Assembly (NCBI GenBank): GCA_002633005.1
Contig: NMRA01000110.1
Span: 622,448 to 686,447 of the forward strand
DNA: 64,000 nucleotides
DNA from: Phoronis australis
Lineage: Eukaryota > Animalia > Phoronida
Reading direction: 5' to 3'
Under the pieces are notes generated by a model. It did not search any database and was not told the DNA's origin. It saw only the letters and a list, made by a program, of their open reading frames with translations. Below are positions 730 to 63,052 of the stretch, one piece after another; the first letter of the stretch is position 1; the number at the start of each line of letters is the position of its first letter. The position numbers and the translations under genes are program-made.

Positions 730-5782
<5,053 letters not shown>

Positions 5783-8897: not shown

Positions 8898-11791
<2,894 letters not shown>

Positions 11792-23700: not shown

Positions 23701-25077
23701 TATGAGTCATTGCTATGAATAAACGCGCGTGACGCTGTTAGCGCAGACAACGAAGGTATTCGATAGCTGTCGGACGTGTCGACAGAGCTCCCTATTCAGC
23801 GTTAGACGGGAAACTGCCGACACTCGTTTTGTTTCAGTAAGTTTACGCTATCACTAATCTGAAATGAAACTTTGTAAAGATTAAGTTTGAATCATGTTAT
23901 CATCCACGATACTGTTTTAAGCTGCACCGATCTTGAGACTTCTACTTTGGAATTAACTGAGGAACAATGTTGCAGAGGAACGCGTACGCGTTGCCCCCAG
24001 GTGTTGTATAGGCCTATATAGAAATGTTTGTTGAAGAATGCTGTCAAGTTTTTCGAAAAGTAGAATGTTCCTTTCAGAGTTGTATTTTGTGTATAACAAT
24101 GTCTTTTGATAAACGAAGTAAGAGTGTGAATTTCATGTGTTGCGTCTTTCTACATGGGTCATGGTAGGCCCTATTAATTTTGTACTTTAATAAGTAACTA
24201 GTAGGCCTACTTGTGTTAATGTTGTTTTCTTGTCCTATTTTCCTGTACCGATGCATAGTAAACATTTTATTTAGTTGCTTACTTTCTAAGCCTTATTACA
24301 AACTAGCTAGCCTTGGTGTAAAGCTGTTTGTCTTCATAGTGCTAGTTGTCTTGGTGGCTAGACGTAACTTACGTGCAAATTAAAGATATTACACTTCATG
24401 CACTGTTAGGTATTGATTCAAAATGTTCCACTTTTGCATCAGGGACTGTCAAAAAGCAGACTGATTTTTGTGAAATAATCACAGTTGCATCAAATGAAAA
24501 GGAAATGATAATTTAGAAAATAACTATGACAAAGATTTTGAGATTTTATTTGTAGCATTCATATCATACTAAATTTAATCATGTTATGTAATTGATCGCG
24601 TGGTTTTTCTTTGAATGTACTTTCCTTTTGTTCTAAATTTTACAATAAAAGCATAATAACTTGAACTTATTAATGGCAGATTGGTTAAAGTCAGCAACTA
24701 AATTCAATTTAAATTCTGCTTTCAGAAAATATACACTTTCGCTGAGGGTTAAATTTTACAGTTTTACAGATATTTGGCTAAATGTACAGATATGTCAATA
24801 GGGTCCTATATAACCTTAAAATGGTTGTTGTTAAATGTTAATAAGAACGAATACAAACAACAGTCAACGTTTTGCTCTGATAAAAAACCGCAGCCGTTGA
24901 ATTTGCATTAACTTGCCTAGGACTGTTTTAGTCCCACGTACGACGAAGTGAATGACCTTTGATAATGATAAGCCCCAGTTTAATGTCTATCGCTTATCAA
25001 AGGTTAGTTCATTGAAAAACACAGGTATGATGCTGAAATATGTCTTGAGTGATTATAATTATTTTTGTCTACAGGGC

Positions 25078-29600: not shown

Positions 29601-32556
29601 TGCGTTTACTTCAATTTAAAATATGGAAACGATGAATTCAATTATCATATTGAATTAGGGAAGATAATTATAAATTGATTGCAGACACACAGTAAATATG
29701 TTGAACAAATAAGCTGAATAAATTTCACTCATGAACGAATTAATGTTAATTAAATAACAGTAAATAATATGCTACTGTTGGATGAGTAACTAAACTTTTA
29801 CACAGAATTACAAACATAGATGTCAATGGTGTAATCAAGGTAATGATTGGTTCCCTTACCGATATTACAAACAAATCATTTATTGTGTTCGTTTGGTATT
29901 ACGTCGTGTTAACATGGTGTTGGGGGCGAATTTCTGTTTTTGTAATATTAAGACTACGCTGTACAGATATCGAGAGCCAAAATAGACGAGGCAATATTAA
30001 TGGTCTAACTTTTGAAGACAATTTCCACCCCGGCCAATCCAGGACCGTCAACGCCTGGAAGGCGATGGAGAACGAAATTTGTTGCGAGAAGCGAAGCCAG
30101 GCAAGGTGAGTAAATTTGATGAGTTTTCGTTGTTTTTACTTCCAATGTGAGAACAGAGACATGAGTTCAAGGCGTAACATAATGAGGAAGGAAAGGTAGA
30201 GGTTTACATCAAGCACTATTTTAGTTTCAGATATTTTCATCAATTAATTTATTTTCTTTTTAGGAAACAAGTTCACTGTTATTGGTGTGAGGCGATCTTC
30301 AACGAACACGTTAATCACGGCGTGAACGCACACCCTGCCGGACATATACTTTTAGACGAAACCAATGGGTTCTAAACTAAGACTCACTCAGCAATTGTTC
30401 CATGTGGCGCGTGAGCCAGGAGTAAACAAAGTGTTGCTGCATATGAAAGCGAGTGTCGAATCTTCTTACAAAATTTAATTGTGGCAGCAAAGGAAAAAAA
30501 CAAATACGTTAGTGAAGTCAAAGAATGATGATGAGCTGCCCATGGGGGGGAGTGGGAGAGTAGTGACTCAAAGATTGCCCCTCATGAACGTCTGGGATTT
30601 AAAAAATTGCCAGAAGTTGTGTTAGCTATTTTGCTAATAAAATGGGTGGGATTTCGTTTGATGTTTTACTGATATTATCGATGCATAAATGAACAGATTG
30701 AGTTGTGGCACTGGTGTGGCTTGGATATACAACGTATGGTACATTTTGTTTGACTCTTCTGTTCTGTTCAGTTCATGATCTCCAGTTTAATGTGACATTG
30801 AAAAAAAGTGAGACGCGTAATAATACACCTACTATGTTGTGATTTTCTCAAAAACTTAGTTAAAATGTTGTCTTTAACATCACTTCAAGACACCATGTAG
30901 TGATTACACAGGAAATCAACAACAAAATTAAAGCAATTCTATAATAGTTAATCTTTTATCACACATACCTCAAAATTGGTCATACAGAAAAAAGATGTGA
31001 AATATTGCTTTAGGGAAATCAAGATTACAAATCCATTGCACATTTCCTGCGAGTTATTTTTGAAATGTTTTATACTAAATAATCACTGAATCATAAAAAA
31101 TCGGACTGGTTGATAGTATAAAGTTCTCTCACATGGATCAACAACAATATCAAAGCAATTTCTACAATAATCGCAGACATATAGTTTTCCTTTAAAAAAC
31201 TAATTGGTTATAACAATTGTATGTAAGTATCACCCAATGATATATAGTGTGGCCATTTGAATATGTCCAAACACTATAAAGATGCATTGGTTCTCTCTGT
31301 TGAAATAACACAAATACAAAAAGAAACTTCAGGAAAAAAGGATCACAACAAAACGTCAAAATACTATCACATCAGACAACTACCAACCATAAACTCTGTA
31401 AATCTGAATAAAGTTTAGCGACTTAACAATTTTGACTACTTGACTTAATGATTTCCTTCATGTCGATTCTGGTTCTCATGCCTGTGGAAGAGGGCAAGAA
31501 AAAGAAGTGTACTCAGGCTCACTCTTTCTGTGAAACATTGATCGCAGATAAGACACTGAATCAACTTGATTCCCGAGCACTATGCTTCATGTTGTGTTTT
31601 CTTATGTAGGTAAAAAAATCTTGCCCCATGCAACACGTCAATCACAGGGGTGGTAAAGGTTTTGCTTGCTGCTGAGTGTCACTGTGTTTTATTGTCAAGT
31701 GGTTATACAAAGGTTTCTTCCTGAACGAAGCTCCACAACATGATATATGATTTGTAACATGCAGCAGTTGTTGAAGGACTCGTCGTGTGGCTACAGTTCA
31801 ACTGAAGAATCAAACGCAATTAATCATATTTGTTAGGCTAACTCTCACACAGAAATCATGAAAAACGATGAAAGTATAATGAACAATCGTCCTGTCAACT
31901 AATTCATTGTCCGTATTATTCTACAATTATTGATATAACACCGTGACTTGAACGATTATTTAGGAAAATGCAAATGCCAGGTTCAACAACGATTTCAATT
32001 AATTTGAATCCTTATCCATATTGCCATTGTTATCAATATCAAATCGTAGTTAAATTGAATGTACATATATATTCTTAATTTCTAACGTACAGTTTCTTTG
32101 ACGTAATCTTTTTGAGGAATGAGCATCGGTAGGTTTTACTCTAGTGTTCCGCGTATAATCGACTACATGTACGTCTTACCCGATGAAGGTGTATTTTCAT
32201 ATCCCAACACATGTATAAGCGTTGTCTGACATAAAGTTGGTAATTCTGACTGATGCAACCGGGCAAACTGAATTACTAATTTTTCGCGGCTTGACACGTT
32301 GCACATGTGAGCAACTTTACATTCATTCCCATGTATTCTATCCGAATTTGTCTCCACGTGAGTTTAGTTTTTTAGGCTATTATCCGAACAAGAAAAACAA
32401 ATACTTGAGCACGACATCTAATATGAGTAACTTAAAGGTATATTTCGCTCATTTTATCTTTAATTGCTTTTTTCGCAAAAGTGAAAATTAAACCTACATT
32501 ACGTTCGCTTTTAGGTAATTGTTTTACATGTATGAGCATTTGAGTAGAGGCCACGC

Positions 32557-32897
32557 GTTATGACTATGCCACGGGCCCCGCGCTATGACTATGCCACGGG
32601 CCCCACGCTATGATTATGCCACGGGTCCCGCAGTGGCTATGCCACGTGCCCCGCGCTATGACTATGCCACGGACCCCGCGCTATGACTATGCCACGCGCT
32701 ATGACTATGCCACGTGCCCGCGCTATGACTATGCCACGGGCCCCGCGCTATGACTATGCCACGGGCCCCGCGATATGTCTATGTCACGGGCCCCGCGCTA
32801 TGACTATGCCACGGGCCCTGCGCTATGATTATGCCACGGGCCCCGCGCTATGACTATGCCACGGGCCCCGCGCTATGACTATGCTACGGGCGCCGCA
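32557..32897. repeat. GC-rich 25-bp minisatellite (~13 units)
   Basis: Unit tatgactatgccacgggccccgcgc in direct tandem without spacers. Confidence 0.95.
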
Positions 32898-43030: not shown

Positions 43031-44734
43031 GTCTTCTCAGTTGACGAACCATTCCTAGTCACTACCGAACACCAACACACGTTCGCAAGTTGTTCACTAG
43101 CCTGGTGACGCGTTGCTGTGTGATGGCATTCCAATCCTGAGTCAGTTAGTACCTGCCACAGTGGTTGTGTTGGTCATTCGTGGTGTTCGATAGGGTTCAA
43201 GTCTGGGCTTCGTGTGGGCCATTCCACCGTGATTTGGAACCAGAACACCAGGCGTGCGTTCGGTAACGCTAGGACATACTCTAGAGCCTAGCTAAAACCT
43301 GGCCAAAGTCAGGTGCGAGAGAACGTTCTCACGTTACCCTCCGCCAAACTTTCAAGTCAAGCGTGCTTAAATACATACTCCGACGGATTTTTTAGTCTGA
43401 GAATGACTTGACAAAATTTTTATCTGGTCATATTTTTGCGTGTTGCTTATATCGCTGAAAATGGCAACAGTCCACTATTCTGAGGGTTCACTACTCCGAA
43501 GGTTCATTACACCGAAAATATCTAAAATTTTGATCCCAGGAATAATTTTTGTACGTTTGCATGCAAAAGTAAACGATACTTCGGATATTAGATGCGCTGA
43601 GTGGTGTACCTATACTGAAAACAACGTCCGGTACCTATTGATTTCATGTGCATACGAAAATGCCTGCAAGTCTTACGAATACGGAAAACTACTGATGTAC
43701 GTTCTTGTATTTTTAAAAGGTTATCAAACCCGGATTTGGTTTTTGACTTTCCCATCCAGCTCTTTGAGACAGAATAATACTCTGTAACCATTAACAACCT
43801 TCAAAACTTTGCTGAGCAATTTGGATTGTCCTTTCAAAGTTTGCTGACCGGGCAAGCGTGACCTACGCTTTTTACGAATTACACGACTGTAAGAAAAGTC
43901 CACCCACAAAGGACCATATTGTCCAAACTGTGACATGGGGTTTAGGAATTTTCAACTGAATCCTCTAAACCCTATTTTGATGATTTCAACCAATCCTCGT
44001 TCTCTCACTTGCTGAGGTATTATTGGCGTCACTCTTGGAAGATAAAATAGAAATCAGCTAAGAATTCATACCCACTATATCGCGAATTGTACATTATGGT
44101 CCTTGGTGGGTGGTCGTTTCCCACAGATGCCCTGTAACTCGCTAAAAGCGTGGGTCATGCACGCTTGCCCCTTTAGCAGAATTTGTCATTAGTTTTCTAG
44201 TTTTCTAATTTTCTAACTTTAGAGGGTTGTCGAGACGTTAGAGAACATTTTTTAAGGAATTGGACGAGAAAGTCGTTTTTGTATCCGTTCATAGGACAAA
44301 ACCGGTGTTGGAATACTTTTAACTTGGAAGATTGACACCAGAGATGCATCAGCAGGTGATAGAACGAGGATTGATGGAAATCATCACAGGGTTTACTATC
44401 CGTTCAAAACAATACGAAGTAGGGATATTTGACATCACCTTCAATTCAAAATCTGAAATGCCTGCACATTACCATACTATGTTAGCAAGTATACCAAAAT
44501 AGCAGACAACAAACCTATTTTCTGCTGTTTTGTTTCTCTGTCGATTTCAAGACATTCAAGCTACACTATTTTTGAGAGCTCTTTCGCTGCTCTAAAGCTT
44601 AGCAACACGTAGTTATAGATATTTACTTCTAGAGTCCGTTGTTACTCTATGGTGTATCGTTGGCTAAATGGGTGGACGTTACGCCGTTAATTGTTGGAGG
44701 CGTAATTAATTGCGACGTAAAGAAATAAGTTGTG

Positions 44735-45125
44735 GCGTAAAGTAATTATTTACTGCGTAAAGTAATTATTTACGGCGTAAAGAAATTATTTGCCTCGTAA
44801 AGTAATTACTTACGGCGTAAAGAAACTTTGTAGAGCGTTAAATAATTAATTTCGGCGTAAAGTAACTTTTAGCCTCTCAAGCACTTTACGACGTAATGTA
44901 AGAATTACTTTACGACGTAATGTAAGAATTACTTTACGACGTAATGTAAGAATTACTTTACGACGTAATGTAAGAATTACTTTACGACGTAATGTAAGAA
45001 TTACTTTACGACGTAATGTAAGAATTACTTTACGACGTAATATAAGAATTACTTTACGACGTAATGTAAGAATTACTTTACGACGTAATGTAAGAATTAC
45101 TTTACGCCGCAAATAATTACTTTAC
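44735..45125. repeat. Foldback-like array: ~21-bp cgtaaagtaattattta units followed by an inverted 24-bp array (gtaatgtaagaattactttacgac, ~9 units)
   Basis: The core cgtaaagtaatt on the left is the reverse complement of aattactttacg on the right. Confidence 0.85.
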
Positions 45126-48917: not shown

Positions 48918-50580
48918 TTTCAGCACGTCTTATCAACTGAAATATCTAAATTTGTATTATGAAAACAATAAGAATTCCGTATTTTTTTATTCCTGGACCT
49001 CTGGTAATCCAATTAGTTTTAAAAGTACTTGCTTAAGCTGATTGCGCAATGCGGTACTATTACAGGATAATTAAATTTATCAATTTAGGAATAAGAACAC
49101 CAACTCTTGAATGTTGTCATCTGTTCATAAACGTCAACTGTTACTCATATCACCACATTTTGGATCTTGGCGTGATACACACACAAACTACATGCTCACC
49201 TAGGAGAACCGGTACATTGTTTCATAACATAATCAAACGTCAACATTAACATGACACAGTCATTTGTTTCCAATCATGTGGATTTCAACTCAAGCCTAGC
49301 ATTTTCCAAAGCATGCAACCTTCCTCAACGCACGCCACCCATTCTTTTGGATTTCTCACTGAAACCAAGCTGTTACGCTGAAAACAAGGTCATATCTAAT
49401 ATTTGTCTGGAAGCAAGTTAGTTACTGAAGTCACAATCAGTAAACAAGTACACAGATTCACAACCAATACCTGTAGTTCCACAATGGCATGGTGTTTAAC
49501 GAACTAGTCTCAGGTATAAAAATTAATTACAAACATATTCAGCCTTGAAGTTGGATAATATGCGACTACGCTTATGCGTCGGTCAATGAATGCAATAATA
49601 ATGTCCACCGAGGTTGGATCAGTGCGCTGTAACATGTAACAAAAACGATCGGATATTCTACGGAAGTGTTATTAAGTGAAAAGAAACCCTTTGGTAGAGC
49701 CTTGTTCTGTAAATTCTTGGAATCTGTGGATAAAATCTCTGTGTGCATTATTTCACACGTTGTTTTGAGGAGGGCGGTCTCAAAGAACACCGGTGACGGT
49801 TACTGTAGCATCCTGCCTTGTCGTCAAGGGAAAGCCGGAAAAACAGTTTTTAAATTTATTGGTAGGCCTACATTATTAATTTTCTGAAACCCAAGAAACT
49901 CAAAATTATCTAAAAAAACATACTAAAACACAGCGACCGCTATAAAACCACAAAAAAGATTTTCATCGCATCTGTCAGCATACATGTACGTGTGACGTCA
50001 GCGGTACAAAAGGGCTTTCTGGTCAACATTCACTATCCTGTCTCCAGCGGATGCCGGAGGTCACCTTGGGTAACACTTAGTGACGTATGCCAACAGTATC
50101 CAACCAAAGTGCAGCCACTCGCCAAAGGTTAACCAATCGTAGCCATTCAATGAAATACAGATGAAACAAGAAAATTCGGCGTACTTGATATTCAGTATCA
50201 AACGTTCGAAGAAACTTTTTATTTTATTTTTTAGTTCTGTAGTAATCGCTATTCACTTACTTACAACAATCTTAAGTTGTATTTTACGGGCTTCGTAGTC
50301 CCTTGGAGCTGTTTGCACTTATAGAACTCATATTTTCGATGTGACTGTTTTCAGTCAACCCTGTACGCATTTCCGTGGCTTCTCTCATAGTAAATGTGAT
50401 GTCATTAAGGAGTAGTTTTCAATCAAACCAGTTCCCTGTTCTGTTTATTACAGAAGACTACCACCGGATAGGGAATGTGTTCAAGACTTCCGATAGCCAC
50501 CACCAAAGTCAATTTCTTCCTTGTTTTTCCCGAAATTAAATATAGATTCTATTTATAGATTACTTCATGAAGCCTAGCCG

Positions 50581-50588
50581 TATAAAAG
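50581..50588 (+). promoter_or_regulatory. Candidate TATA box of the GWDS precursor gene
   Basis: TATAAAAG 85 nt upstream of the ATG at 50666. Confidence 0.5.
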
Positions 50589-50665
50589 TAGGAACCCAGG
50601 GCCCAAAGAAATCAGAAATTGAATTGGAATCTTAAGAATAAGAAAAACATTTTGTGAAACTTGCG

Positions 50666-51349
50666 ATGGATTTCAACAAAGTTATATTACTATTATTAGT
50701 GATTGCGTCGACTGTGACATGCCGACCGGTCGAGGAGACACCGACACCGCTACACCGTGTTGTGAGCATAGTAAAACGAAGCAACAACGACCGAGGCAGT
50801 ATTGACGGTTGGGACAGCATTGATGGATGGGACAGCGCAAACGATGCCAAAATGCGAGTAAAACGCGGATGGGACAGTGAGTCAGTGGTTAAACATAGCG
50901 CCGGTTGGGACAGTGAAAGTCGCACCAAACTTAGCGATGATGGCTGGGACAGCGTCAACCGAGTCAAACGCGGTTGGGACAGCTCCCCCGTTAGTCTCGA
51001 CGGTTGGGACAGTTTATTCCACACAGATCGAGTGCAGGAATCCGATGCAAAGCGTGTGAAGAGAGGTTGGGACAGTTCTCCTCTGAGCGCCGACGGGTGG
51101 GACAGCATATTTCATTCCGTGCAAGAATCCACCAATGACGCAAAGCGCGTGAAGAGAGGTTGGGACAGTCATCCTGTTAGTATCGACGGTTGGGATAGCC
51201 GGGGCTCAGACAGCCAGAGAAGCAGAGTTAAACGAGGCTGGGACAGTACTTCGGTTAACGACGAATTGAAAGTTCTGCAGCAGCACGTGCAGAAACGTAG
51301 TGCAGACGGCTGGGACAGCTTAGTTGGCTCGTACAAAGTCCGTGCATAA
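50666..51349 (+). CDS. Secreted multi-copy peptide precursor (neuropeptide/prohormone-like) with 13 GWDS motifs; single coding exon, 227 aa
   Basis: Signal peptide MDFNKVILLLLVIASTVTC|RP. Five RVKR sites plus IVKR and VQKR. 13 exact GWDS with synonymous codon variation (GGN, GAC/GAT, AGC/AGT). Higher GC than the flanks. Confidence 0.9.
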   Translation: MDFNKVILLLLVIASTVTCRPVEETPTPLHRVVSIVKRSNNDRGSIDGWDSIDGWDSANDAKMRVKRGWDSESVVKHSAGWDSESRTKLSDDGWDSVNRVKRGWDSSPVSLDGWDSLFHTDRVQESDAKRVKRGWDSSPLSADGWDSIFHSVQESTNDAKRVKRGWDSHPVSIDGWDSRGSDSQRSRVKRGWDSTSVNDELKVLQQHVQKRSADGWDSLVGSYKVRA

Positions 51350-54300
51350 AGGCCAGTTTTCTAATTAACATTCATTTGGCAAGAACAAAGGGTCATTGTT
51401 CCCAACTTGTCATTTGAAGCGTCCATTTTTCATTATCGTACAACAATGGTGATGTAATCTCACTCCAGTGCTGTAGTGTTTTGGAGTATTTCTCGAACAT
51501 TACGTAGCTTACATTCCAAGGTGTTTTCCTATGGTGAATTATTAGATGAACTCAACGAAAAACTCTGTGATATTTACATGATTGAAAATTCGTGTATTTA
51601 TGAGTATCAACGCTTGATGTAGCCATTTTGACAGACTTTCTTTGTCTTTCAATTCAACATTTTTAGTATTTTGTTTTCCATTATTAACCTTTTCCATTTT
51701 CACTTCACAATGTTATCGTAATTTATTTCCTGTCATCACTTTCAGAAACCGATGTACTAGAATGGTTTCTTTTAAGTATGATATTTTTATTTATTTATTT
51801 ATTCATTAATTATTTATTTATGTATTTATGTAATTAATTCCTTATTTATTCTGTGCGTGTGTGCTTGAAATTGACGTGGGAACGTTTTGATGTTATAAAA
51901 TGTAAACTCGGTGTACTTTCGATTCCAAAATACATATATATTAACAGTACATTGTATTTTCGTGAGTTATAAGCTCAATACTTGTAGAACACTACGCTCA
52001 CCCAGACGTACACAACTCAAAACATGTAGACCCAGCAGTGCGGCGACAGCCACTCATTGTAGCGCTATCATTTCACAGCAGGAGGGTCGTGACACTAGCT
52101 CTAGAGTCACTTGAAAAGCCAACAACAGAAGCAGAATTTGGCACTTTGAAATAAGGAATTCATCATTGACCCCTTAATTGTCTCATCTTCACGGATCTTG
52201 TTCCACTGTGAACTATGTTCGGGACCGCTTCCCAAGTTTGTTCAACAGGACTAGCCGAAGTGAACCTACCCTTTAGACTCCATATTTGGTCCATGGTTAT
52301 ATCATACGTAATAACAGCACAAACTCTTCGTATTAAAAAAAAAACAAAAGAAAGTGCTCCATCTCAAAACAATACATTTCAAAGATGGCGTTGCATGCTC
52401 TGAACTTAAAGGAAATGTTAGTTATCTCTCGATACAAGAAAAAATGCTAATTCTTAATTGCCATCGCACATGATTGCTGTTGCCTGTACTACCCCTAACC
52501 AGCGGTGCCTAGATCCGGTGGATAAAAACCATTGACATCGTAAAATACCCCCATTTTTGGACAATCAAAGTCATGGTGAATTCCAGTGGAACAAACTTAT
52601 TCTTGGGTGGATCTTGCGGGATCAGATTTCTGGGGTGTCCGATTTGTTTTTCTTTCTTAATATTTACTGAGCAAATATATGTATACAAAAAGATAAAATG
52701 AACATCATTCATATCTATACGCACGCACGTAAACACGGGGTTGTGAAATCCAGAGATAGTTTGAGAGAGCATTTTACAATCATCAAATTTCGACAGTTTA
52801 TTTTCGGCAATTTTTTTGAGATATAAAAAGTATTGGGGAACATCGGTGCGAGGAATCATCGGCAACAGAACAGTGGGATGTGGAAATTATGGGAATATGG
52901 GCAAGGCAGGCGCACATTTTCAAACACTAATGATAGACCGGTCACAACTTAACAAGTCAAAATGAAAGCACGCTGACAAATTCGAAGGCAACGGTGAAAT
53001 CTGATCGCAAACTGTATCCCAGTGCGAATTAAATTCCGCACAATCACATACACACAAGCGGCTTTTTCTAGATCAACATGAACGGAGTGAAACTAGTGTA
53101 TTTGAATTACCAAACATAGGCGTTGTGGCCTCGTAGGGCACGTGTCGACAGCACATATGCAGTGTACGTTTGATGCATGTAATGAATCAAAATATGACTA
53201 CTACTTGAAAAAGCAGCATTACACAGAACTCACAGCTGCGTAACACAGGAAACAACAAAACAAGCCGCGATAGCGACAATATCCACGCAAGTGGACCCTC
53301 GATGAACGAGCTAAACATATTGGTTTTTTAGAAGCGGGAATATCCGTAGTGGTGCATGGTTATCGTTTGTAAACTCAGGGTAGCGTCGTCGGATAGTCAC
53401 TGTGCCGGCGATTATATTAACAGCCACGGCTATTTTTAGTCTCTCGGTCCTGTAGTGTTAGTCAGATTTAGATCAAGAAAATTCTGCTAGAATATCATTG
53501 TCCCCAACTGGAGAATTATCTCAACCGGCGATCAACTGTTCAAGCTGTGGTTAGTCCGGAAACGTGCAATCTCACGAAGATGATACAAAATATACCACTA
53601 TTATCAGTCGACGCTGATTGGCCAAGAACATGTGAGAGGGAGTTTCCAAGAACGGAGGCAAAATGAAAACAAAATCGTGGCAATTAATAAGTGGCTGTGC
53701 ATAACAAAACTAAGCAAAGATATGCTGCACAAAAGTATATGTTTAACAAGTCTAAAAGGCATCTGGCCTAGTCGCCCGACTTTATTAAACGAAAAAGAGC
53801 TCAACGGCACCAAAATGCGAGAACATTCCATAATTAGACAAAAATTGACAATTGTTGCAATTAAATTTTCAAATTTCTACCAAAATTTGTGATGATTATT
53901 GGACACAGAAATATGTAGACAATGAAGTAAATAATGTTATTCATAAACATTCTCGTAGATCAAGGTATCAAAATAAACATCCACCTGAAGAATTCTTTAT
54001 TAGTGAATCGACAAAAATGTTGGGGAGTCATAGAAAAACGGGATACTTGTTCTGACGCTTTAAAACTCATGAATTTTTAAATAGTTAAGCCCATCTAATA
54101 CCATTTTGGTAGAATTTCCCGATGACAACTGCCGAGTCTGATAACAAGCTTTCTGTACTCCACAGATTTGCAATGATTTTTCTGTCACATTCCGCACTAA
54201 TGTAATCATAGATCCTCAGGGGGTAATTAAACAATTATCTCCTCAACCAGGACCATAAACCCTTTGTTAAGGTGTGTTTATTTCCACAGTCCAACTGGGT

Positions 54301-54576
54301 CAGTTGTATGGCCAGGGTCCAGCTAGAACAACCCCCGTTCAGTAACGCTAGCACCTCGCTAAAAAGCAAACTTCGCGAGATTGCAGGAGATATTGCAGTG
54401 TATTTTAAGTGAAAATACGTGACTCTGGCTTAATTTTAGCTAGGTCCCAGCGTAGGTCCTAGCGGCGTTTCTGAACGCACACCTACTTTCACTGACCTTG
54501 CATGTCAGTTTTATTAAGTCTCTCGTGTGTGAGCGACACGCTCCCCAAATTTCTAAACCAATGTGGGGACTAGTTA

Positions 54577-54740
54577 CAGTGAAAGATTTAGCGGGAGGCC
54601 AAGGGGACCATTGCCCCCAGTAAAATTCTCCCAGATTCCATTTGGCAACTTGGCAGTTCACGGGTGCAAATGTGTGACCGTTAAAATCTTGGCTAATACT
54701 CTGCCCTGGCCCCTCTTAACTCAAAATCCTGAATCCGCGA
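54577..54740. mobile_element. Degenerate copy of the CAGTGGCGGAT MITE family
   Basis: Shares aaaattctcccagattccatttggca...ctctgccctg...taactcaaaatcctg.atccgc with the other copies. Termini eroded. Confidence 0.7.
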
Positions 54741-54983
54741 CATCTGCATACTTGTACCTATCTAGATTGACTCAATTAGTGTTTTAAATACGTTACAAGC
54801 CAACCTTCTCTAAACAGACTTTGATCTAGTAGACTGTTACCAATAACAACATGAGGTTTGAAATGGTTCTGCTTCCTTTCATATCAGAAGGGATTTCCAA
54901 GTTTAAAGCATGAAATGTTTGGAGCCAACTAGTTGAATCTGGTCTCAATCAGTTACAAAGTGCCAGTTTGTTCTTCACAAACT

Positions 54984-55190
54984 CACAGATCACCTCTGAA
55001 CCCACGGATAACCTCTGACACCACAGATAACCTCTGAACCCACAGATAACCTCTGAACCCACAGATAACCTCTGAACCCACAGATAACGTCTGACACCAC
55101 GGATAACCTCTGAACCCACGGATAACCTCTGAACCCAAAGCTCACATCTAAACCCACAGAACACTCCTAAAGCCACAAATCACCTCTGAT
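54984..55190. repeat. 19-bp minisatellite
   Basis: Unit cacagataacctctgaacc. Confidence 0.9.
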
Positions 55191-55996
55191 CTGAATAAGG
55201 AACAAGGTGAGAAATAGAACTGCAGGAGGCCAAAATCAAAATCTTCTCTCTGACAAAGTCGGTTTATAGCATCTTTAACTGATGTATCATTGTGAAATGA
55301 ATATAGGGTTTAAATAACAGCTCAACATTGTGAAATGAACCTATGTCTATAAATACACTGTTCAAAATCAATAAAACCATTAAAAATCGAATAACAAGGA
55401 GTTGACTTGTTAAATTAAAATTTAAATATGTACATTGCAGGCAGATATAACCAACAGCCCACTTTCCAGTGTCTCCCTCCAGTGAGCAGTAGACACGTCT
55501 TGAGGTCATACATACATTACTGTGTCTCCCTCTAGTGAGTAGTAAATAATTGTCTTGAGGTCATATGCTTTGACCATAGTTATAAAACAATAGAATCTGA
55601 TCCCTTTGTGATTTTATTACAAATCATCAATTCGCAGAGTTGTCTGCAATCAAGGCTGGTGAAATATTTATCAGTTAAATATCTTTGGAACACACTGCCA
55701 CCTGTTATGTGGTGTTGAGCTCTTCCAGCGGCGCATTAAATTACGACCCCAAAAGTAGCAGGCTTGAATCTGAGCTGAAGCTGGTCTCAGTAAATCACTT
55801 TCTCGTTGTTAATGTCCCTCTAACTAAAGCCAATGAAAAATGCACAAAATTTAATTCCCAGTATTTCACCGAGTTCAATTTCTAGGTTAAGACATCCAAA
55901 AACTGTCTCAACGACTTCTCGCTTTGTCACTAAAACGTGACTAGTGCTTGCTACAGACATGCAGCATGCTGAGGTACAGTGGTAGTCTCACTGGAG

Positions 55997-58900
55997 TTAG
56001 GGAAGGATCACGTGCATGAGAGAACACAGCTGACTGTAGACTGGCTCTGGAACAAAGTACACACAACAGATGTACTCACTAATGTAGACACACCTTGGGT
56101 GCAAATTACATAACCTGTAATGTTGCAGGGAAAGGTCCATGTTGTGAACATTCCCCTTACAACAGAATCCTAGACAAGGACCAGTTTCATCCACATTCTT
56201 TCAGGCACAGCTTCTATTGTTAACTATGCAGTATAACTAGTTGGAAAGCCATGTTGGAAATTACTTTCCAATGAATAGCACATGGCTTGAGATTTTGTTG
56301 ACAAAATCCCTTATACTTGATCAGTTGTGAAAATTCAAGAACCCACAGAGACTACTTTTTATTTCTCTAGTCAGATTTTATAGTTACCATAAACATGTTA
56401 TTATTTCAAATGTACTTTTATCGTGGAAATGAACAATTGAGAAGAAAAATAAATAGTGCAGGGTTTCAGGTAGCCTTGTGAAAGAGCTCACAGTCATGTC
56501 AAGTTTAGGGTATACCTGAATGGCCTAAGGCCGCCTTGCATGACTTGACTTCATCTAGTCTGGCTTGGGTACACCCCAAACCATTTTGGGTGTACTCAAA
56601 ATTGTGTTTGTGTATCCATGCAGCTCTCAGGCTTTGAGTACACCCCAAATCATTTTGGGTGAACTCATGAAATTGTGTTTGTGTATTCAGTTTAGTAGCT
56701 CTGGGTACACCCCAAACCATTTTTGTGTACTTATAAAATTGTGCTGGTGTATTCCCAGAGCTGAATCCACAAACACAATTTTATGAGTTCACCCAAAATG
56801 ATTTGGGATGTACTCAAAGCCTGAGAGCTGCATGAATACACAAACACAATTTTGAGTACACCCAAAATGGTTTGGGCTCACAGTCCCTAAACTTGATATG
56901 ACTGTGAGCTCTTTCACAAGGCTACCTGAAACCCTGCACAATTTATTTTTCTTATTAATTGTTCATTTCCATGATAAAAGTTCATTTGAAATAATAACAT
57001 GTTCATAGGTTTTCATGCCCCTGAAAGCAAATGGAAAATAGAGCCTGGATGCTGTTAAGCTTTCTATTTAGACATGATCTTATAAGAGACAGTAATTACT
57101 CTCACTATGTGACCTCAGTACTGAATAGAGTCACTCTATTGATAACTAGCCCCCTATTGTGCATGGAATGTGGATAGAACTGGTCTAGCTAACCATGTGA
57201 CATTGGCGAAATTCAAGATTTCACCAAATCGATCCTTATCTCATTTAAAGAGGACGTTTACCACATGCATTTTATACGCATGTGCAGATCAAAAATTTCA
57301 ACGTAGTTCTAAACAAGAGTGACTGATTATGGACCAACATAGACCTATACTAAAACTATGCAATAGAGTTGAAACAAAAGGAAAAGATAAAGATGAGCAA
57401 AGAGTTAGAGCCAGAAGGGTAATTTTGTTATATGTCCTCGGTACTGGATTGAAAATAACTTTTTTGATCTACTGTCAGTACATAATAAGCATGTACTCTT
57501 ATGTAAAGACACGAGGGCTTTGAATCAAAAAGAGCCTTTCTGATCAATTGTCAGTTGATAAAAGGCATCCATTATCAAAATCAGTGACATGGTAATTGGC
57601 TAAGACCCACCAAATGATGGCGGTGTTGTTTTCTTCAATGCACGAGTGACTGGTAGTCATAGCAACGTTGCAGTCATTGAGCAATCAAAACAGGTCAAAA
57701 GTCAGGACAGGAGTGCAAGAAAATGAAAGAGTATATCTCTTATTTAGTTTCAACTACAGACTACAGTGGTTTCAAAATCCAACAATCAACTGAATCCACA
57801 CACTCACGTCATCTTTTGTTGTGCACCTTGATGGATACATTAAAGGTGAACGAGTCGGCACTAATTGAAATACTAGAATGCAACTACATTGTTTTAGGCT
57901 AATTTCTATCATATTTCTTAAAAAATGTTCCTAATCTAACTTTTAATTCAACTTCATTTCGCACCGTTTCACCCGCTAAAAAGAAAATTGAATTAGGACT
58001 TTCTCTTTCATAAAATTGGGTCTCATAATAATCGTCATGGTGATAGGATTCTATTTCCATTGCAGACAAACATTGAAACCATCAGCGACTCACGAAAATG
58101 CGTAAAAGCTTATACTATAGGGGTCGCCCAACCCTAAAACTGGTCCCTTGAGAATGGCACAAGTATGCACGACTTCAGTTGGCTGCTTCCCAAAAAGTGA
58201 AGGAAATGGAGTGAGTCGGGTTTGACGGCAATTTTGTGGACTAACTGGGAAGTGATTGCCACGGATGGTATCCAGTATTTCCTTGAAGTTGTTTTGAGTA
58301 AATTAAGTACAAAAATTTGTCCCCTTCTCCTAGCTACCAGGATACAGAAGTTTTACCATTTTCAAAGCACATCCCTGTTCAGCGCAAAATTCTTGAGACA
58401 AATACATGAATCTATCAGACGAGTGGAAGTTCACAAAAATTTGGTTGCCAATCGATGTATTTTAATTTAAATTTCTGGAATCAAGAGTGTCACAGCACTT
58501 GCATCATTATATCCCATCTTGCACCGGGACAAATGCGAATTTGCGATTTTAGTTAAAAAAGGACAAAAATGCACTTTTTGACATCTCAATTGTTCCATTG
58601 AGTGTACTTTTTGTAAGTTTATTCAGGTGTCTTGAAAAAGGGTGCAAACAAGGACTTTCATTGATCCAGATAACTCAATTTTCTGTTTCACTTTCTCTCC
58701 ATTTATGAATACACAGACTTTTGCTGACTCCTGTTAGTTGGTTATTGTTGACCCCTGTTAGTTGGTTATTGTTGACCCCTGTTAGTTGGTTATTGCTGAC
58801 CCCTGTTAGTTGGCTATTGTTGACCCCTGTTAGTTGGTTATTGTTGAATGAATGCTATTGCAGTCAATAATCATATGCTTTACTAGGTAACATTTTTATA

Positions 58901-61900
58901 TTCACATGATAAAAGTAGACATGTTCAAGGTTGTAACATTACATGGAGCATAAAATGAACACAGCAGCAGCTGCTGCAAACATCACAGGGGAGATAACCT
59001 ACTCATTGTCTAGTGTCACTGTGAGACTACACTGGCAAGACACTCCCTTAATTCTAGATTATCACTTCATGACTCACAGAAATTCATGCTCTGGCATGAA
59101 TAAGCATCAGGTTTTGCTCTCCAAGAAATGGTCAATGCCTTGTAAAAGGATAGAAGTAAAAAGACAAGTGAGTGTGTGACTGACATTCTTAAGACCACAC
59201 TTACCACTGTCAGGCCCAATGTAGCCGTGTCTTATCAGGAAGTCGAGCATTATCAAGGCACTGTTGGGCTTGAAATCATCTCTCAGCAGGAAGTCACTCA
59301 CCTAGAGTTCCACGAATTAGAAAAACAAAGTTATGTTGGTCGCATTTAGAACATGCTTCCTTTTCAGTGTTTTCTTAGCTAGGCATGCGCAGCCAGATCT
59401 GTAGTTATCCATCCAATGTATTCAGTCTGGCATGCACGGCCAGATCTGTAGTTATCCGTCCAATGTATTCAGTCTGGCATGCATGGCCAGATCTTCAGAT
59501 AACACCACCTCCCCCATAGCGCCTATTGAACTGAGATGTAAACAGTGCTATGTATGCATGGATGAAGTCAACATAGACATACAAATAATTGAGTATGGGG
59601 AGGAACACTCATGTCTTAGGCACGATAAGCAAGCTTATGTGCTTCACAACATGTAAAAATAGGTGGATGCCATGAGCTGCTCGCCGACTTAGTGCACTTA
59701 GTGTGGAATATTCAAAGTTGCTCCCCGAAGGTTTGAAAATTGACACTATTAACACTATTTCAAAAAATTATTTAAGTTGCAGTTCTTAATTGTTAACAGG
59801 TCAAATTACGGTTTAGTATCTTTTAAAAGTACATCTCACCTCCTCTATAGTCATCAAGGTAAACCCCTGAACTTCACCATCATCGTTAACAGGTATGAAG
59901 TCAGAGGGCAGCTCAAGGTCCATTACAAACTCACACTCAGGGAACAGACCCAGCTCATTCTCGAAGAAATAGCTGTGAACACAACACATGACTCATCAAA
60001 GCTCAAATGTAGGGATATGGGAAAATAATTTTAAATTCAACGAAACAATATTATATTGTCATAAAACTAACTGAGGGAACTCATACTAAAACCTGTTAAA
60101 TATTAGCACATGAGCACCAGATGGCAGTATGTACCCACTCATGTATATGTAAGTGCAATATGAACACCAGGTGGCAGTATGTACCCAAATATGTATATGT
60201 ATGTAAGCACAACATGAACACCAGGCGGCACTATGTACCCAAACATGTATATGTACGTATGCTTAATATGAACACCAGATGGCAGTATGTACCCACACAT
60301 GCATATGTATGTAAAACACTAAGTAAAACGATGGCCCAAAATTTATGAAACAAAAATGTATTTTAAATGTGATACAGGTGCAGCTCCATCTATTGATGCG
60401 CATATCTAACTACAGGTGTGTGTATGGTACTATTAACACCATTTGATTTAAAGATGGCATTATTTACTCTCTGATGACGGTAGCCTAGTGCCAGTCAGTG
60501 AAATGATAGTCAGAGGTCCACAAGGTCTTACCAACCCTTCACCTGATACAACCAGCAGCCTTCATCTTGCTGGCGAGACTCTCGGGTATAGACGCCTCTT
60601 CAGCACACTCTTTTATAGCACATCTTGCCACCTTCATCCCCGAGGTTAATCCACCCGCCACCTGGACACAGAAGAGAGCAAGATGAACAACAGGGGACAT
60701 TATGGATTGGATAAATGTTGACAAAACATGAACATTCAAACACATCTTAAAACCAGTGAGGATAACCTTAAATTGCACCATACCAACATCTTAGTTAAAT
60801 TAAGGTCAAGGTCTCAAATAAGGAAACAACCAACAGTACTAGCATCATCTTAAAGGCGAAGGCAACCTTTTTTCATGTCGTTTTGAGCTAAAATAAGGTT
60901 GGTTGGTTATCCTAGACATATTTTCCACTTAATTACAGCTTTTCGTAATTTTATTAGTTACTCGTCCGCTATTCCGGAAGTGACGTTTTAGGAGGCAAGC
61001 GTTTCCCGCCACTTGGTTTTGCGTTGAGTTTACTGTGCGAATCTGTTCTGTTCTACTTTTGTTTTGTGCTGTTTTTCAACAATTGTCGCCACCACTTTCC
61101 ATCGGCGAGTATTCTGCGGCAACATAGGTTAGTAGAGAACTCAACTACGTTGGATTTAGGCATTGTTTAGTGTGTTGTAGGCTGAAAATGGCTGGACTCG
61201 GTAACCCGTATCACAGTGACAGTAATGTGAGTGACGGAGACCTTGTTCACAGCAGTGGTGACGAGGAATTTTTTCACGGACATTTAGTGGGTGGGTACAT
61301 GTTTGAGCCAGAGTATAATGAGGCAGAGTACGCACAGGCACAGACAGCTGTTGAGAGAAACGAGGCGGCTACTGACGACAGACGTGGTGACACATCTTGG
61401 TGCAAATGCACTGTGTGCGTTGTTATGCCTACCTCAATGGAATACTTGTGCTGTTCAGAATTCGACGAGGCCAAGCCACTACTGGACACGGTTAAGTGGA
61501 CCTCCGGCATACCACGGACAGAGGAACAATTGTCCCACTTGCCAGTGTGTCCCGCGACACACTCCCACCGGATGGTGACCTGAGCACCCAAACTGCTTAC
61601 ATCGGGTCGTGTGACTCCCTCGCCACACACCTGGCACCTTTCTAAATAGTTCCAACACTTTAGACAAGTCCACAATAAATTTATCAAAGTTTGGCTCACC
61701 GATCTGTTCACTGGACGACGAACTGTCCTCTTCACTGGGTGTCGAACTGGGCCTGTAATCACTTCCACTACTCAATATCGCTGCAGGGCTGCTTAGAGGC
61801 TCTGGGCTGGAGAAAACAGCACAGGGCGAATCACTACTGGTTCCAGGAATGGCACGCTCTGGGGTACGTTCGGAGGCACGGGTGACAGTAGATGAAGTGC

Positions 61901-63052
61901 CTCCACTGGCTCCAGTCACTGTACTGGCCACAGGTTGCAAGGCTTCTTGCTTCAAAAATGCACTTTTCGGGGGTGGCGACGGGGCACTGCCGGGAATCAA
62001 CACAGACGGAATGACATCCTTCTTCAGGCGTTGTTTTGCAGGGACCTTCATCAGTTCAGCGTACAAATCCCTTTCGTAATCGGACGGCAGAAAGTGTTTG
62101 ACACACACAGAGTAATTCTCGACTGCTTTGTACGTTGCGTGGACGGGTAACGCTGCGTTCTTCACACGAACGTGCCAAGTACAACGAAGTGTGTCGTCCA
62201 TTGGAAAGCGATGCAAAGTTACTCCCAAAGCGCCCGCGAGACGATAATTAGTACATCCCGGTATGTAGCAACAGTGTGGCATGTTGACGTACTAGTAAAT
62301 GAAAGGAAACGACGACGGAACTTAACACAACCGAGGTAGAACAATGACTGACTCAGCAGCTCTCACAGTCAGACTATATGAAAAGAAATTGGCGCGAAAT
62401 GCTTGCCTCCTAAAACGTCACTTCCCGAGTAGCGGACGAGTAATTAACAAAATTACGAAAAGCTGTAATTAAGTGGAAACTATGTCTAGGATAACCAACC
62501 AACCTTATTTTAGCTCAAAATGACATGATAAAAGGTTGCCTTCACCTTTAAAGAGTGATTTCCCAAAGTTTCAGTAGACCCAAAAGTGATTACAAGGTAA
62601 CCAAAGCTCAATAATGTTCAAATATTCCTCAGAGATTGTGAGAGACCCTTGTGATGCATGCTTAAAAACATCCCGGTTTCATAAGATAGGCTAACTATTA
62701 CCGTGTTACACACAGCTGTTACAAAATAACTACTTTTCTTATTAGCATGCTCAATGCAATACATGTGAAGTGGCCATTTTAAGGTATGTTTAATTTCATC
62801 AGTTTTTAACCCAGGAACGTGACCAGTAGCTAAAGCTGTTAGTTATGATATGCCCCATAAACCATCAAGTTTCAGCCTTCCACGGCCGTTCAACATTCAG
62901 ATCATTCCACTCTATCCGTACCAAATTATCGTAATGTCCCGGCCACATCTGCTTCGTACTGGATCTCTGCGCGATCCAGACCTTTGTCTCTCCCTTGGAG
63001 TCTACCACATAGCCATTGATGTGGACACCGAACTGCTTGACACCGAGTAGGC
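55997..63052 (-). CDS. Nudix hydrolase (YJR142W / AtNUDT20-24-like, DUF4743-associated), 3' portion; exons 63052-62922, 60661-60543, 59972-59840, 59301-59205, 56046-55997; 5' exons lie outside the window
   Basis: Spliced: LLGVKQFGVHINGYVVDSKGETKVWIAQRSSTKQMWPGHYDNL|VAGGLTSGMKVARCAIKECAEEASIPESLASKMKAAGCIS|YFFENELGLFPECEFVMDLELPSDFIPVNDDGEVQGFTLMTIEE|VSDFLLRDDFKPNSALIMLDFLIRHGYIGPDS|EPVYSQLCSLMHVILP*. GT-AG sites and phases are consistent. Nudix-like box KECxEEA and family motifs GVHINGY, FKPN..LDFLIRHG are present. Confidence 0.9.
56392..57003. mobile_element. Foldback element / long-TIR MITE in the last Nudix intron
   Basis: ~120-bp outer inverted arms (aacatgttattatttcaaatg...aagtttaggg / ccctaaactt...catttgaaataataacatgtt) plus ~115-bp inner inverted arms built of cccaaa.cattttggg subrepeats. 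Confidence 0.85.
58722..58848. repeat. 24-bp minisatellite, ~5 units
   Basis: Unit ttgttgacccctgttagttggtta. Confidence 0.9.
60110..60315. repeat. ~50-54-bp tandem repeat, ~4 units
   Basis: atgaacaccag(a/g)tggcagtatgtaccca...atgtatatgta variants. Confidence 0.85.
61188..61583 (+). CDS. KolX / P2X7 C-terminal ballast-like Cys-rich protein, truncated near 61495
   Basis: MAGLGNPYHSDS...GYMFEPEY...DTSWCKCTVCVVMPTSMEYLCCSE matches the YxFEP...WCxCxxCxxMPTxxExxCCxE signature. The C-terminal tail is read-through into the antisense of the transposase. Confidence 0.8.
   Translation: MAGLGNPYHSDSNVSDGDLVHSSGDEEFFHGHLVGGYMFEPEYNEAEYAQAQTAVERNEAATDDRRGDTSWCKCTVCVVMPTSMEYLCCSEFDEAKPLLDTVKWTSGIPRTEEQLSHLPVCPATHSHRMVT
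61495..62282 (-). pseudogene. THAP-domain Kolobok transposase N-terminal half; frameshift near 61640, catalytic DDE region deleted
   Basis: MPHCCYIPGCTN...LHRFP...W...VCVKHF...RLKKDVIPSV (THAP), an acidic linker, KFIVDLSKVLELFR, then in the shifted frame CQVCG...VTIRWECVAGHTGKW..SSVRGMP. Confidence 0.85.

What the first reader, a model, noticed from the sequence alone, without database searches (positions are those of the whole stretch)
50666..51349. Unassigned secreted prepropeptide with 13 invariant GWDS motifs released by furin-type RVKR sites
Seen: signal peptide, 5 RVKR plus 2 further KR sites, and 13 exact GWDS. The motif is invariant at protein level while Gly, Asp and Ser codons vary and spacers diverge, which indicates purifying selection on the tetrapeptide rather than recent slippage. 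All five RVKR sites are followed directly by GWDS. Three units share a GWDS-x6-GWDS double motif (GWDSSPVSLDGWDS, GWDSSPLSADGWDS, GWDSHPVSIDGWDS). There is no G-K/R amidation signal and no Cys in the mature region. Known: this is the architecture of multi-copy neuropeptide precursors and of Kex2-processed repeat RiPP precursors. It does not match Wamide/APGWamide (amidated) and only loosely recalls pedal-peptide/orcokinin FDSI motifs or achatin-type G-aromatic tetrapeptides. Inference: a new signalling, pheromone or toxin peptide family, or a precursor of Trp-modified peptides.
Basis: partly seen in the sequence, partly recalled or inferred. Interest (0 to 1): 0.88.

Follow-up and report, generated by a model that had tools for sequence, protein, structure and literature searches.

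The report
Orphan secreted GWDS-repeat peptide precursor
This invertebrate animal gene encodes a small protein with 13 perfectly conserved copies of the motif Gly-Trp-Asp-Ser; it is predicted to be secreted and cut by furin-type enzymes into short peptides that likely act as a signal, and it matched no protein or described peptide family in the searches run.

Summary
A single-exon, 227-residue ORF (50666-51349, +) has a signal-peptide-like N-terminus, 13 GWDS and 5 RVKR, each RVKR followed directly by GWDS. Selection is strong: between copies, pS/pN is 0.82/0.00 for GWDS and 0.98/0.00 for RVKRGWDS, against pN 0.44-0.66 in the flanks. New here: 7 of the 8 GWDS without an RVKR follow a conserved S-x-D, so the motif sits in two contexts. 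No real homologue was found in 5.8 billion proteins, 1.84 billion representatives, a metagenome scan, or the neuropeptide supplements searched (several only in part). The nearest look-alike is the KR-GFDS start of pedal-peptide/FCAP-type peptides, but that family's C-terminal hallmarks are absent. Against a general neuropeptide: three RNA-seq runs of the same species label gave about 3 fragments near the gene, none on its first 518 coding bases. Best reading: a lineage-restricted, tissue- or stage-specific precursor that convertases cut into seven acidic 16-33-residue peptides with GWDS as the active N-terminal message. Cleavage, Trp modification, receptor, tissue and phylum are all untested. 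It is a real orphan peptide gene of a familiar architecture, with one unexplained feature (S-x-D-GWDS).

The parts
50581..50588 (+). TATAAAAG, candidate TATA box 85 bases upstream of the ATG (function inferred)
   Evidence: regex; sequence. Divergent reads that run across and upstream of it leave the true start open
50517..50640 (+). Upstream stretch with a second, roughly 88%-identical copy in the RNA reads (paralogue, divergent allele or dispersed repeat; unresolved)
   Evidence: 4 X2 reads under 90% alike, 2 starts, 11 listed differences, loose end before 50547 that resembles the window's own upstream letters
50666..51349 (+). Single-exon ORF, 227 aa prepropeptide; ATG in good Kozak context (G at -3 and +4), in-frame stop 9 codons upstream
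50666..50722 (+). Predicted signal peptide, residues 1-19 (cut after V-T-C)
   Evidence: hydropathy; von Heijne rule applied by eye
50723..50779 (+). Pro-segment residues 20-36 plus KR 37-38; no GWDS
50780..50860 (+). Predicted peptide 1 (27 aa, 2 GWDS, both S-x-D-GWDS, an 18-base tandem duplication)
50855..50866 (+). RVKR site 1
50867..50965 (+). Predicted peptide 2 (33 aa, 3 GWDS; contains VKH-SA-GWDS and RTKL-SDD-GWDS, which look like decayed basic sites)
50960..50971 (+). RVKR site 2
50972..51049 (+). Predicted peptide 3 (26 aa, GWDS-x6-GWDS doublet)
   Evidence: 72% DNA identity over 141 bases with the next unit
51053..51064 (+). RVKR site 3 (within KRVKR)
51065..51142 (+). Predicted peptide 4 (26 aa, doublet)
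51146..51157 (+). RVKR site 4 (within KRVKR)
51158..51229 (+). Predicted peptide 5 (24 aa, doublet)
51224..51235 (+). RVKR site 5
51236..51292 (+). Predicted peptide 6 (19 aa, one N-terminal GWDS), followed by KR at 51293-51298
51299..51346 (+). Predicted peptide 7 (16 aa, begins S-A-D-GWDS directly after KR)
51350..51775 (+). Probable 3' UTR; holds the only two sense-orientation read pairs; no AATAAA found up to 53000

Best explanation
This is an intronless invertebrate gene whose 13 GWDS and 5 RVKR motifs are under strong purifying selection; its product is predicted to be secreted and likely cut by furin/prohormone convertases into seven acidic, unamidated peptides of 16-33 residues, whose GWDS motif would act as the message read by a still unknown receptor. 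Steps: (1) Shown: an open, selected reading frame with a hydrophobic N-terminus. (2) Predicted: signal-peptide entry into the secretory pathway. (3) Inferred: cleavage after RVKR/KR and trimming of the basic residues leaves five peptides that begin with G-W-D-S, one that begins S-A-D-GWDS, and one with both motifs internal. (4) Inferred: the eight internal motifs either give a two-headed ligand (W to W 10 residues in three units) or are freed by a second cut after the conserved S-x-D. (5) Inferred: the variable, S/D-rich tails are spacers. (6) Inferred: expression is confined to a tissue or stage missing from the RNA samples laid (gland, gonad, larva or a few neurons). Trp would stand at position 2, where peptide isomerases act, so D-Trp is possible but untested.
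For: Nei-Gojobori counts between copies. GWDS x13: 107 synonymous and 0 non-synonymous pairwise differences (pS 0.82, pN 0.00). RVKRGWDS x5: 49 and 0 (pS 0.98). At least 12 changes are needed among the five RVKRGWDS copies, all synonymous (rough P 1.5e-8); for GWDS alone at least 5 (rough P 5e-5). Flanking four-codon blocks have pN 0.44, 0.61 and 0.66. The S-x-D before 7 of 8 internal motifs has pN 0.19 against pS 1.22. All 5 RxxR in the protein are RVKR, each directly before GWDS. RXXR is treated as a convertase site in 10.1101/802215. Short active sequences between less-constrained spacers is the textbook proneuropeptide layout, and cleavage next to acidic residues without a basic site was seen by MS in Nematostella, though mostly before Q or Pro motifs (PMC11087051). 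The Aplysia isomerase converts Trp at position 2 of GFFD analogues (PMC11277431). No Cys and no real Pfam domain. Neighbouring genes are animal-type: two intron-containing COMTD1-like O-methyltransferases, a TRIM-NHL, and THAP / P2RX7_C fragments.
Against: Hardly any transcript. Of 12.8, 11.3 and 11.0 million records read (about 18-19% of runs X1-X3), about 3 fragments lay on 51184-51775 (2 in the orientation expected for sense, 1 opposite), none on 50666-51183, and none at all in X3 or in the X4 contigs. The tissues of these runs are not given, and the organism's presence in X1-X3 rests on the species label and on stranded depth of about 7 at 55686-56000, not on a housekeeping-gene control. 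No homologue anywhere, so cross-species conservation is not shown. Nothing marks the C-terminal end of a short active peptide: the residue after GWDS is I, A, E, E, V, S, L, S, I, H, R, T, L. The predicted peptides are longer than the usual 3-20 residues. No canonical polyA signal within 1.6 kb of the stop. The motif was chosen for its invariance, so the P values are inflated, and copies are related by duplication, so pairs are not independent.
Confidence: 0.5

Rival explanations
1. A highly derived member of the pedal peptide / orcokinin / FCAP / FDSIG superfamily, in which the usual N-terminal G-F-D-S became G-W-D-S and neighbouring copies fused by loss of basic sites.
For: KR-GFDS starts are common in mollusc precursors of this type (KRGFDS 18, 36 and 36 times in supplement files 1, 3, 4 of PMC6425005; a cephalopod copy begins GFDSID, like GWDSID here). 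A parasitoid-wasp orcokinin-A reads NFDEIDRAGWDSFVK (PMC5831470). The family is unamidated and multi-copy. Two units read W...W-D-S-[LI]-F, close to the pattern of one N-terminal and two C-terminal hydrophobic residues (PMC5814872). VKH-SA-GWDS and RTKL-SDD-GWDS look like decayed basic sites.
Against: 0 of 5 post-RVKR copies have a hydrophobic residue after GWDS (E, S, S, H, T); only 5 of 13 overall. Gly two places after the motif occurs in 1 of 13. 0 of 7 predicted peptides end in the SGFx-type hydrophobic C-terminus (PMC5860471). No such precursor was among the hits. A four-residue likeness can arise by convergence.
Confidence: 0.17
2. A precursor for enzyme-modified small peptides: GWDS (with S-x-D) is the substrate or recognition site of a dedicated modifying or cyclising enzyme (for example Trp isomerisation, halogenation, hydroxylation or cross-linking), giving a RiPP-like animal natural product.
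For: Every Trp in the protein sits in an invariant context, in two settings (after RVKR and after S-x-D), as expected if one enzyme must read each copy. The internal copies are as conserved as the N-terminal ones although no basic site frees them. Near-absence of transcript fits a specialised gland.
Against: No tailoring enzyme lies near it: Pfam on 150 of the 181 listed ORFs of 48 aa or more from 40-64 kb found only THAP and P2RX7_C (repeat-derived and overlapping frames were left out). The two O-methyltransferase genes are about 39-50 kb away and are ordinary COMTD1. The segments between motifs vary from 2 to 20 residues, unlike fixed cores. The likeness to cyanobactin recognition sequences is recalled only; the paper search for it found nothing.
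Confidence: 0.12
3. A non-signalling secretion (adhesive, mucus, tube/shell matrix, egg coat or defensive/venom component): furin cuts it into acidic Ser/Asp-rich pieces in which Trp gives stacking or cross-linking and Asp/Ser bind metal or mineral.
For: Ser 35 and Asp 29 of 227 residues; predicted peptide pI 4.0-5.7. RVKR is the furin-type site typical of constitutive secretion (own knowledge). Intronless, TATA-type layout and absence from general RNA-seq fit a gland product.
Against: An exact tetrapeptide with zero substitutions, not even D/E, S/T or W/F/Y, is tighter than bulk material chemistry usually needs (inference). There is no S-x-E phosphorylation motif and no N-glycosylation site, and no Cys, Tyr or Lys enrichment for cross-linking.
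Confidence: 0.15
4. A recently silenced relic: once a functional peptide gene, now not expressed.
For: About 3 fragments in three runs, in both orientations; no AATAAA.
Against: The 227-codon frame is intact and has no non-synonymous change in any of the 13 GWDS or 5 RVKR copies, so any loss of function must be very recent.
Confidence: 0.06

Closest known systems
Pedal peptide / orcokinin / FCAP / FDSIG-type precursors (PMC5814872, PMC5860471, PMC4990251, PMC6425005 supplements, PMC5831470)
   Same: Secreted, multi-copy, unamidated; G-aromatic-D-S directly after KR (KR-GFDS); GWDSF inside a wasp orcokinin.
   Different: Trp instead of Phe/Leu; no hydrophobic residue or Gly after the N-terminal motif; no SGFx or hydrophobic C-terminus; peptides 16-33 aa with polar tails; RVKR rather than plain KR; internal S-x-D-GWDS copies.
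Patinopecten yessoensis 'GWamide' precursor (PMC5996578; sequence seen in the PMC8557429 supplement)
   Same: Peptides start KR-GW[D/E/G/N], with conservation at the N-terminus; it holds the only GWDS in that 3.9-million-character supplement.
   Different: Several copies end in G-K/R amidation signals, the peptides are short, the motif tolerates substitution, and it has no RVKR or S-x-D. It was not a hit.
Achatin-type tetrapeptides (scallop GFWD, GYGD; Aplysia GdFFD, GdYFD)
   Same: N-terminal Gly followed by an aromatic residue at position 2, the isomerase-sensitive position; acidic; unamidated.
   Different: Asp is at position 3, not 4. No dibasic site follows GWDS in any of 13 copies (one is followed by a single R), so a free tetrapeptide would need other proteases.
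Myoinhibitory peptide / allatostatin-B (Wamide) precursors (nemertean examples)
   Same: KR-GW[D/N] start and two Trp per peptide; the first doublet here has the same W-x5-W spacing as those examples.
   Different: No C-terminal W-G-K/R amidation signal anywhere; the three main doublets are W-x9-W, and the second Trp is followed by long tails.

Membership tests
Multi-copy convertase-processed peptide precursor (architecture) | N-terminal signal peptide | tested here: met
   Hydropathy and -3/-1 rule by eye only; SignalP not available
Multi-copy convertase-processed peptide precursor (architecture) | Repeated conserved motif next to basic cleavage sites, with less-constrained spacers | tested here: met
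   pN 0.00 in motifs against 0.44-0.66 in flanks; 5 of 13 motifs directly after RVKR
Multi-copy convertase-processed peptide precursor (architecture) | Transcribed | tested here: inconclusive
   About 3 fragments in runs X1-X3, none over the first 518 coding bases; tissues unknown
Multi-copy convertase-processed peptide precursor (architecture) | Mature peptides detected, cleavage shown | not testable with these tools
   Needs LC-MS or in vitro cleavage
Pedal peptide/orcokinin/FCAP | N-terminal x-hydrophobic-D-S after a dibasic site | tested here: met
   KR-GWDS in 5 copies against KR-GFDS
Pedal peptide/orcokinin/FCAP | Hydrophobic residue then Gly after the D-S (FDSIG/FDSLG type) | tested here: not met
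   0 of 5 N-terminal copies hydrophobic; Gly in 1 of 13; pattern
Pedal peptide/orcokinin/FCAP | Two C-terminal hydrophobic residues / SGFx end | tested here: not met
   0 of 7 predicted peptides; feature
Pedal peptide/orcokinin/FCAP | Sequence clustering, synteny or receptor shared with the family | tested here: inconclusive
   No family member among the hits, but short-repeat precursors often escape such searches; synteny and receptor not testable
Achatin | Tetrapeptide G-aromatic-x-D bounded by basic sites | tested here: not met
   G-W-D-S; 0 of 13 followed by a dibasic site; examples; the two-sided flanking is recalled
Achatin | D-residue at position 2 | not testable with these tools
   Needs chiral MS; Trp at position 2 is an accepted isomerase substrate in Aplysia
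Wamide (MIP/allatostatin-B, APGWamide/RGWamide, scallop GWamide) | C-terminal amidation signal G-K/R | tested here: not met
   No G-K/R in the protein; family examples
RiPP-like repeat precursors (fungal Kex2-processed, cyanobactin-type) | Tailoring enzymes encoded beside the precursor | tested here: not met
   Pfam scans of 150 and 133 ORFs across the window found no such enzyme near the gene; short exons could be missed, and animals need not cluster such genes
RiPP-like repeat precursors (fungal Kex2-processed, cyanobactin-type) | Modified core peptide produced | not testable with these tools
   Needs metabolomics/peptidomics

The most novel reading that the evidence does not exclude
A new animal peptide class matured by two proteases: furin at RVKR and an unknown secretory protease cutting after S-x-D. 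Together they expose up to 13 G-W-D-S N-termini whose position-2 Trp is enzymatically modified (D-Trp or otherwise), giving a lineage-specific pheromone, neuromodulator or RiPP-like product with its own receptor.
Probability: 0.12. Interest if true: 0.75.

Novelty: new variant of a known kind. Interest (0 to 1): 0.42.

Why it matters
If expressed and processed, it adds an unrecorded, strongly selected peptide motif to the invertebrate secretome and hands over ready-made ligands for receptor deorphanisation. The unusual point is that 8 of 13 motifs are as strictly conserved as the furin-released ones yet have no basic site; 7 follow S-x-D. That predicts either a two-headed ligand or an acid-directed processing step of the sort so far documented mainly in cnidarians. 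Orphan repeat precursors as such are common in invertebrate surveys, so the importance is moderate until a peptide, a tissue or an orthologue is found.

Tried and rejected
Homology: the search for homologous proteins scored 0 of 3,606 candidates at E<=0.001 (124-398 aa only). phmmer over 1.84 billion representatives gave 4 weak hits (E 1e-6 to 2e-4), all rejected on inspection as an ankyrin-repeat protein and three low-complexity GWD repeats with no GWDS repeat array or RVKR. The metagenome scan gave 1 of 112 candidates, a shadow frame opposite a bacterial pilin-like gene; rejected. Pfam MDY2_C (E 1.5e-7, above cut-off, but a 9-residue stretch) rejected as a repeat artefact. The ESM Atlas was unavailable and no whole genome is held, so paralogues outside the window were not searched. 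No RNA holder was listed by the run search; this blank is not used as evidence. The antisense 158-aa ORF (50632-51108) is a shadow: the motif's synonymous third positions change its residues (LSQP/LSHP). AlphaFold2 on the single sequence gave mean pLDDT 46, pTM 0.16, which is uninformative; no fold search was run. Rfam: 0 matches in the window. Lineage: the COMTD1 exon's best listed hits are 78-81% (fish, Lingula and unnamed records; Bugula 76%; 120 of 726 shown) and the TRIM gave only weak hits, so the phylum is unresolved. Earlier scan findings: six look-ups gave nothing relevant; one search returned only glucan-water dikinases. A recalled likeness to cyanobactin recognition sequences was not supported by any search (0 papers). 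One search found no paper on a comparable furin-cut pheromone precursor.

Full report
1. Observation. The + strand holds a single-exon ORF at 50666-51349 encoding 227 residues. It has 13 exact GWDS, which account for all 13 Trp. There are five RVKR, each directly followed by GWDS, two further isolated KR (37, 210), two KR overlapping KRVKR, and one Cys at residue 19. There is no G-K/R, no N-glycosylation site and no S-x-E. Residues 6-16 are strongly hydrophobic (2.99) and the rest is polar; with a basic n-region and V-T-C at -3/-1 this reads as a signal peptide, judged by eye. In 20,000 shuffles of the mature region no 4-mer occurred more than 5 times, and GWDS occurs nowhere else in the window's six frames.

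2. Selection. Comparing copies codon by codon: GWDS x13 has pS 0.82 and pN 0.00 (107 against 0 pairwise differences); RVKRGWDS x5 has pS 0.98 and pN 0.00, with four different Val codons and Arg switching between CGN and AGA. The four codons before RVKR, after RVKRGWDS and after the internal GWDS have pN 0.61, 0.44 and 0.66. As a lower bound, 12 changes separate the five RVKRGWDS copies and all are synonymous (rough P 1.5e-8). These P values are flattered because the motif was picked for invariance and the copies descend from one another: there is an 18-base tandem at 50797-50836 and a 93-base repeat at 50998-51199, with 72% identity over 141 bases. Even so, the repeats are old and protein-level selection is clear. 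The antisense 158-aa ORF changes residue at those same third positions and is a shadow.

3. The motif sits in two contexts. Five copies follow RVKR. Eight are internal, and 7 of these follow S-x-D (SID three times, SAD twice, SLD, SDD); that triplet has pN 0.19 against pS 1.22. The eighth follows H-S-A. The last peptide begins KR-SAD-GWDS, and two internal copies are preceded by VKH-SA and RTKL-SDD, which look like decayed basic sites (inference). Cutting at KR and trimming gives a 17-residue pro-segment and seven peptides of 27, 33, 26, 26, 24, 19 and 16 residues, pI 4.0-5.7, carrying 2, 3, 2, 2, 2, 1 and 1 motifs. A hydrophobic residue follows GWDS in 5 of 8 internal copies and 0 of 5 N-terminal ones.

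4. Context. The window is from an invertebrate-type animal genome: two intron-containing COMTD1-like methyltransferases (about 0.7-5.8 kb and 8.8-11.8 kb), an intronless TRIM-NHL gene (24952-26688), and THAP and P2RX7_C fragments at 61-62 kb. The phylum could not be fixed. Pfam on 150 of 181 listed ORFs from 40-64 kb and 133 of 138 from 1-40 kb found no processing or tailoring enzyme near the gene (omitted frames were tandem-repeat or overlapping ones). A TATAAAAG lies at 50581; no AATAAA follows the stop up to 53000. No whole genome was held.

5. Expression. Three raw RNA-seq runs and one contig set with the same species label were laid. The libraries are stranded (depth about 7 against about 0 at 55686-56000), and X4 contigs match 55610-55904 with no difference. 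On 50000-52200 at 80% likeness, X1 gave 3 reads, X2 8, X3 0 and X4 0, from 12.8, 11.3 and 11.0 million records (about 18-19% of each raw run) and the whole contig set. From the depth table I count about three fragments at 51184-51775, two in the orientation expected for sense RNA and one opposite; 50666-51183 had no depth. Four X2 reads under 90% alike cover about 50547-50640 and point to a second copy of the upstream region. So the gene is essentially silent in these samples, whose tissues are not given. This weighs against a broadly expressed neuropeptide but does not exclude a restricted one.

6. Relatives. None found: 0 of 3,606 candidates; 4 junk hits among 1.84 billion representatives; 1 junk locus among 112 metagenome candidates; no look-alike in earlier scan notes.

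7. Literature. Full-text searches for GWDS with neuropeptide (2 papers), GWDS with precursor and peptide (17 papers, 16 listed) and KRGWD/DGWDS/GWDSI/GWDSL/GWDSS (18 papers, 16 listed) listed no such precursor; I saw listings only, except one passage of PMC5831470. Supplement searches: PMC8557429, GWDS once (scallop GWamide; long lines are cut); PMC3890597, 3 GWDS in a secretome file, 2 seen and unrelated, 5 files not searched; PMC11087051, 1 unrelated hit, files 13-31 not searched; PMC6425005, KRGWD 1, DGWDS 2 and RVKRG hits seen and unrelated, 16 GWDS in file 2 of which 4 were seen, files 2 and 3 cut when stored; PMC9793003, none; PMC6188537, none. Main-text passages were read for PMC8557429, PMC5814872, PMC5860471, PMC5996578, PMC11277431, PMC4990251, 10.1101/802215 (66), PMC6425005 and PMC11087051. 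Subscription papers, unsearched supplement files and bioRxiv supplements could still hold the family.

8. How it most likely works. Shown: intact, selected frame and motif layout. Predicted: secretion. Inferred: furin/PC cleavage after RVKR and KR exposes G-W-D-S N-termini that act as the message, with polar tails as spacers. The internal S-x-D-GWDS copies either make bivalent ligands (W to W 10 residues in three units) or are freed by a second cut after Asp; non-basic, acid-associated cleavage is documented by MS in Nematostella, mostly before Q or Pro motifs. Trp would occupy position 2, which the Aplysia L/D isomerase accepts, so D-Trp is a testable option, not a finding. I give this 0.5. 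Rivals: a derived pedal-peptide/orcokinin/FCAP member 0.17; a non-signalling gland, adhesive or defence secretion 0.15; an enzyme-modified RiPP-like product 0.12; a recently silenced relic 0.06.

9. Comparison with known families. It works like a multi-copy proneuropeptide. It is not filed in any family. Pedal peptide/orcokinin shares the KR-G-aromatic-D-S start but fails the following hydrophobic-Gly and the C-terminal hallmarks. Achatin needs a bounded G-aromatic-x-D tetrapeptide (examples; two-sided flanking recalled). Wamides and the scallop GWamide need amidation.

10. Verdict. A real, strongly selected, apparently unrecorded peptide-precursor gene with a familiar architecture and one unexplained feature. 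Orphan precursors are routine finds (13 new in scallop; 15 new in Nematostella), and here there is no orthologue, no tissue and almost no transcript. Interest 0.42; new variant of a known kind.

Noticed in passing
window 679-5779 (+) and 8847-11788 (+): Two tandem, intron-containing COMTD1-like O-methyltransferase genes with matching exon layout (Pfam Methyltransf_3); the best listed homologues of one exon are only 78-81% identical.
   Followed up: partly
window 24952-26688 (+): Intronless TRIM gene (RING, B-box, coiled coil, NHL-like tail) with no close relative (best E 3e-13, 19% identity). It carries a 24-base tandem insert at 26092-26217 encoding LERRFSS-type repeats, and the frame ends just after an N in the assembly.
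   Followed up: partly
window 61128-62291: P2RX7_C-like ORF (+) and THAP ORF (-) overlapping tail to tail, likely a DNA-transposon remnant; a similar FEPEY-containing fragment lies at 4267-4602.
   Followed up: no
window 55600-56000 and CpG-poor zone 54-60 kb: Stranded RNA reads and exact-match contigs suggest the 3' end of an expressed minus-strand gene; CpG o/e falls to 0.27-0.5 there against about 1.1 in the GWDS ORF, consistent with gene-body methylation of that neighbour. Its coding exons were not identified.
   Followed up: partly
window 50517-50640: The region just upstream of the GWDS ORF, including the TATA-like box, has a second copy about 88% alike in X2 reads: a possible paralogue, allele or repeat.
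   Followed up: partly
window 54334-54369, 54434-54464, 54610-54740: Short, highly repeated elements with hundreds of partly matching reads per run and many loose ends; probably MITE- or SINE-like fragments common in this genome's transcripts.
   Followed up: no
window 44704-45106, 32549-32896, 54980-55189, 56562-56900: Minisatellite arrays (20-25, 19 and 69 base units); the 56.5-56.9 kb array appears to form a long inverted repeat (seen by eye).
   Followed up: no
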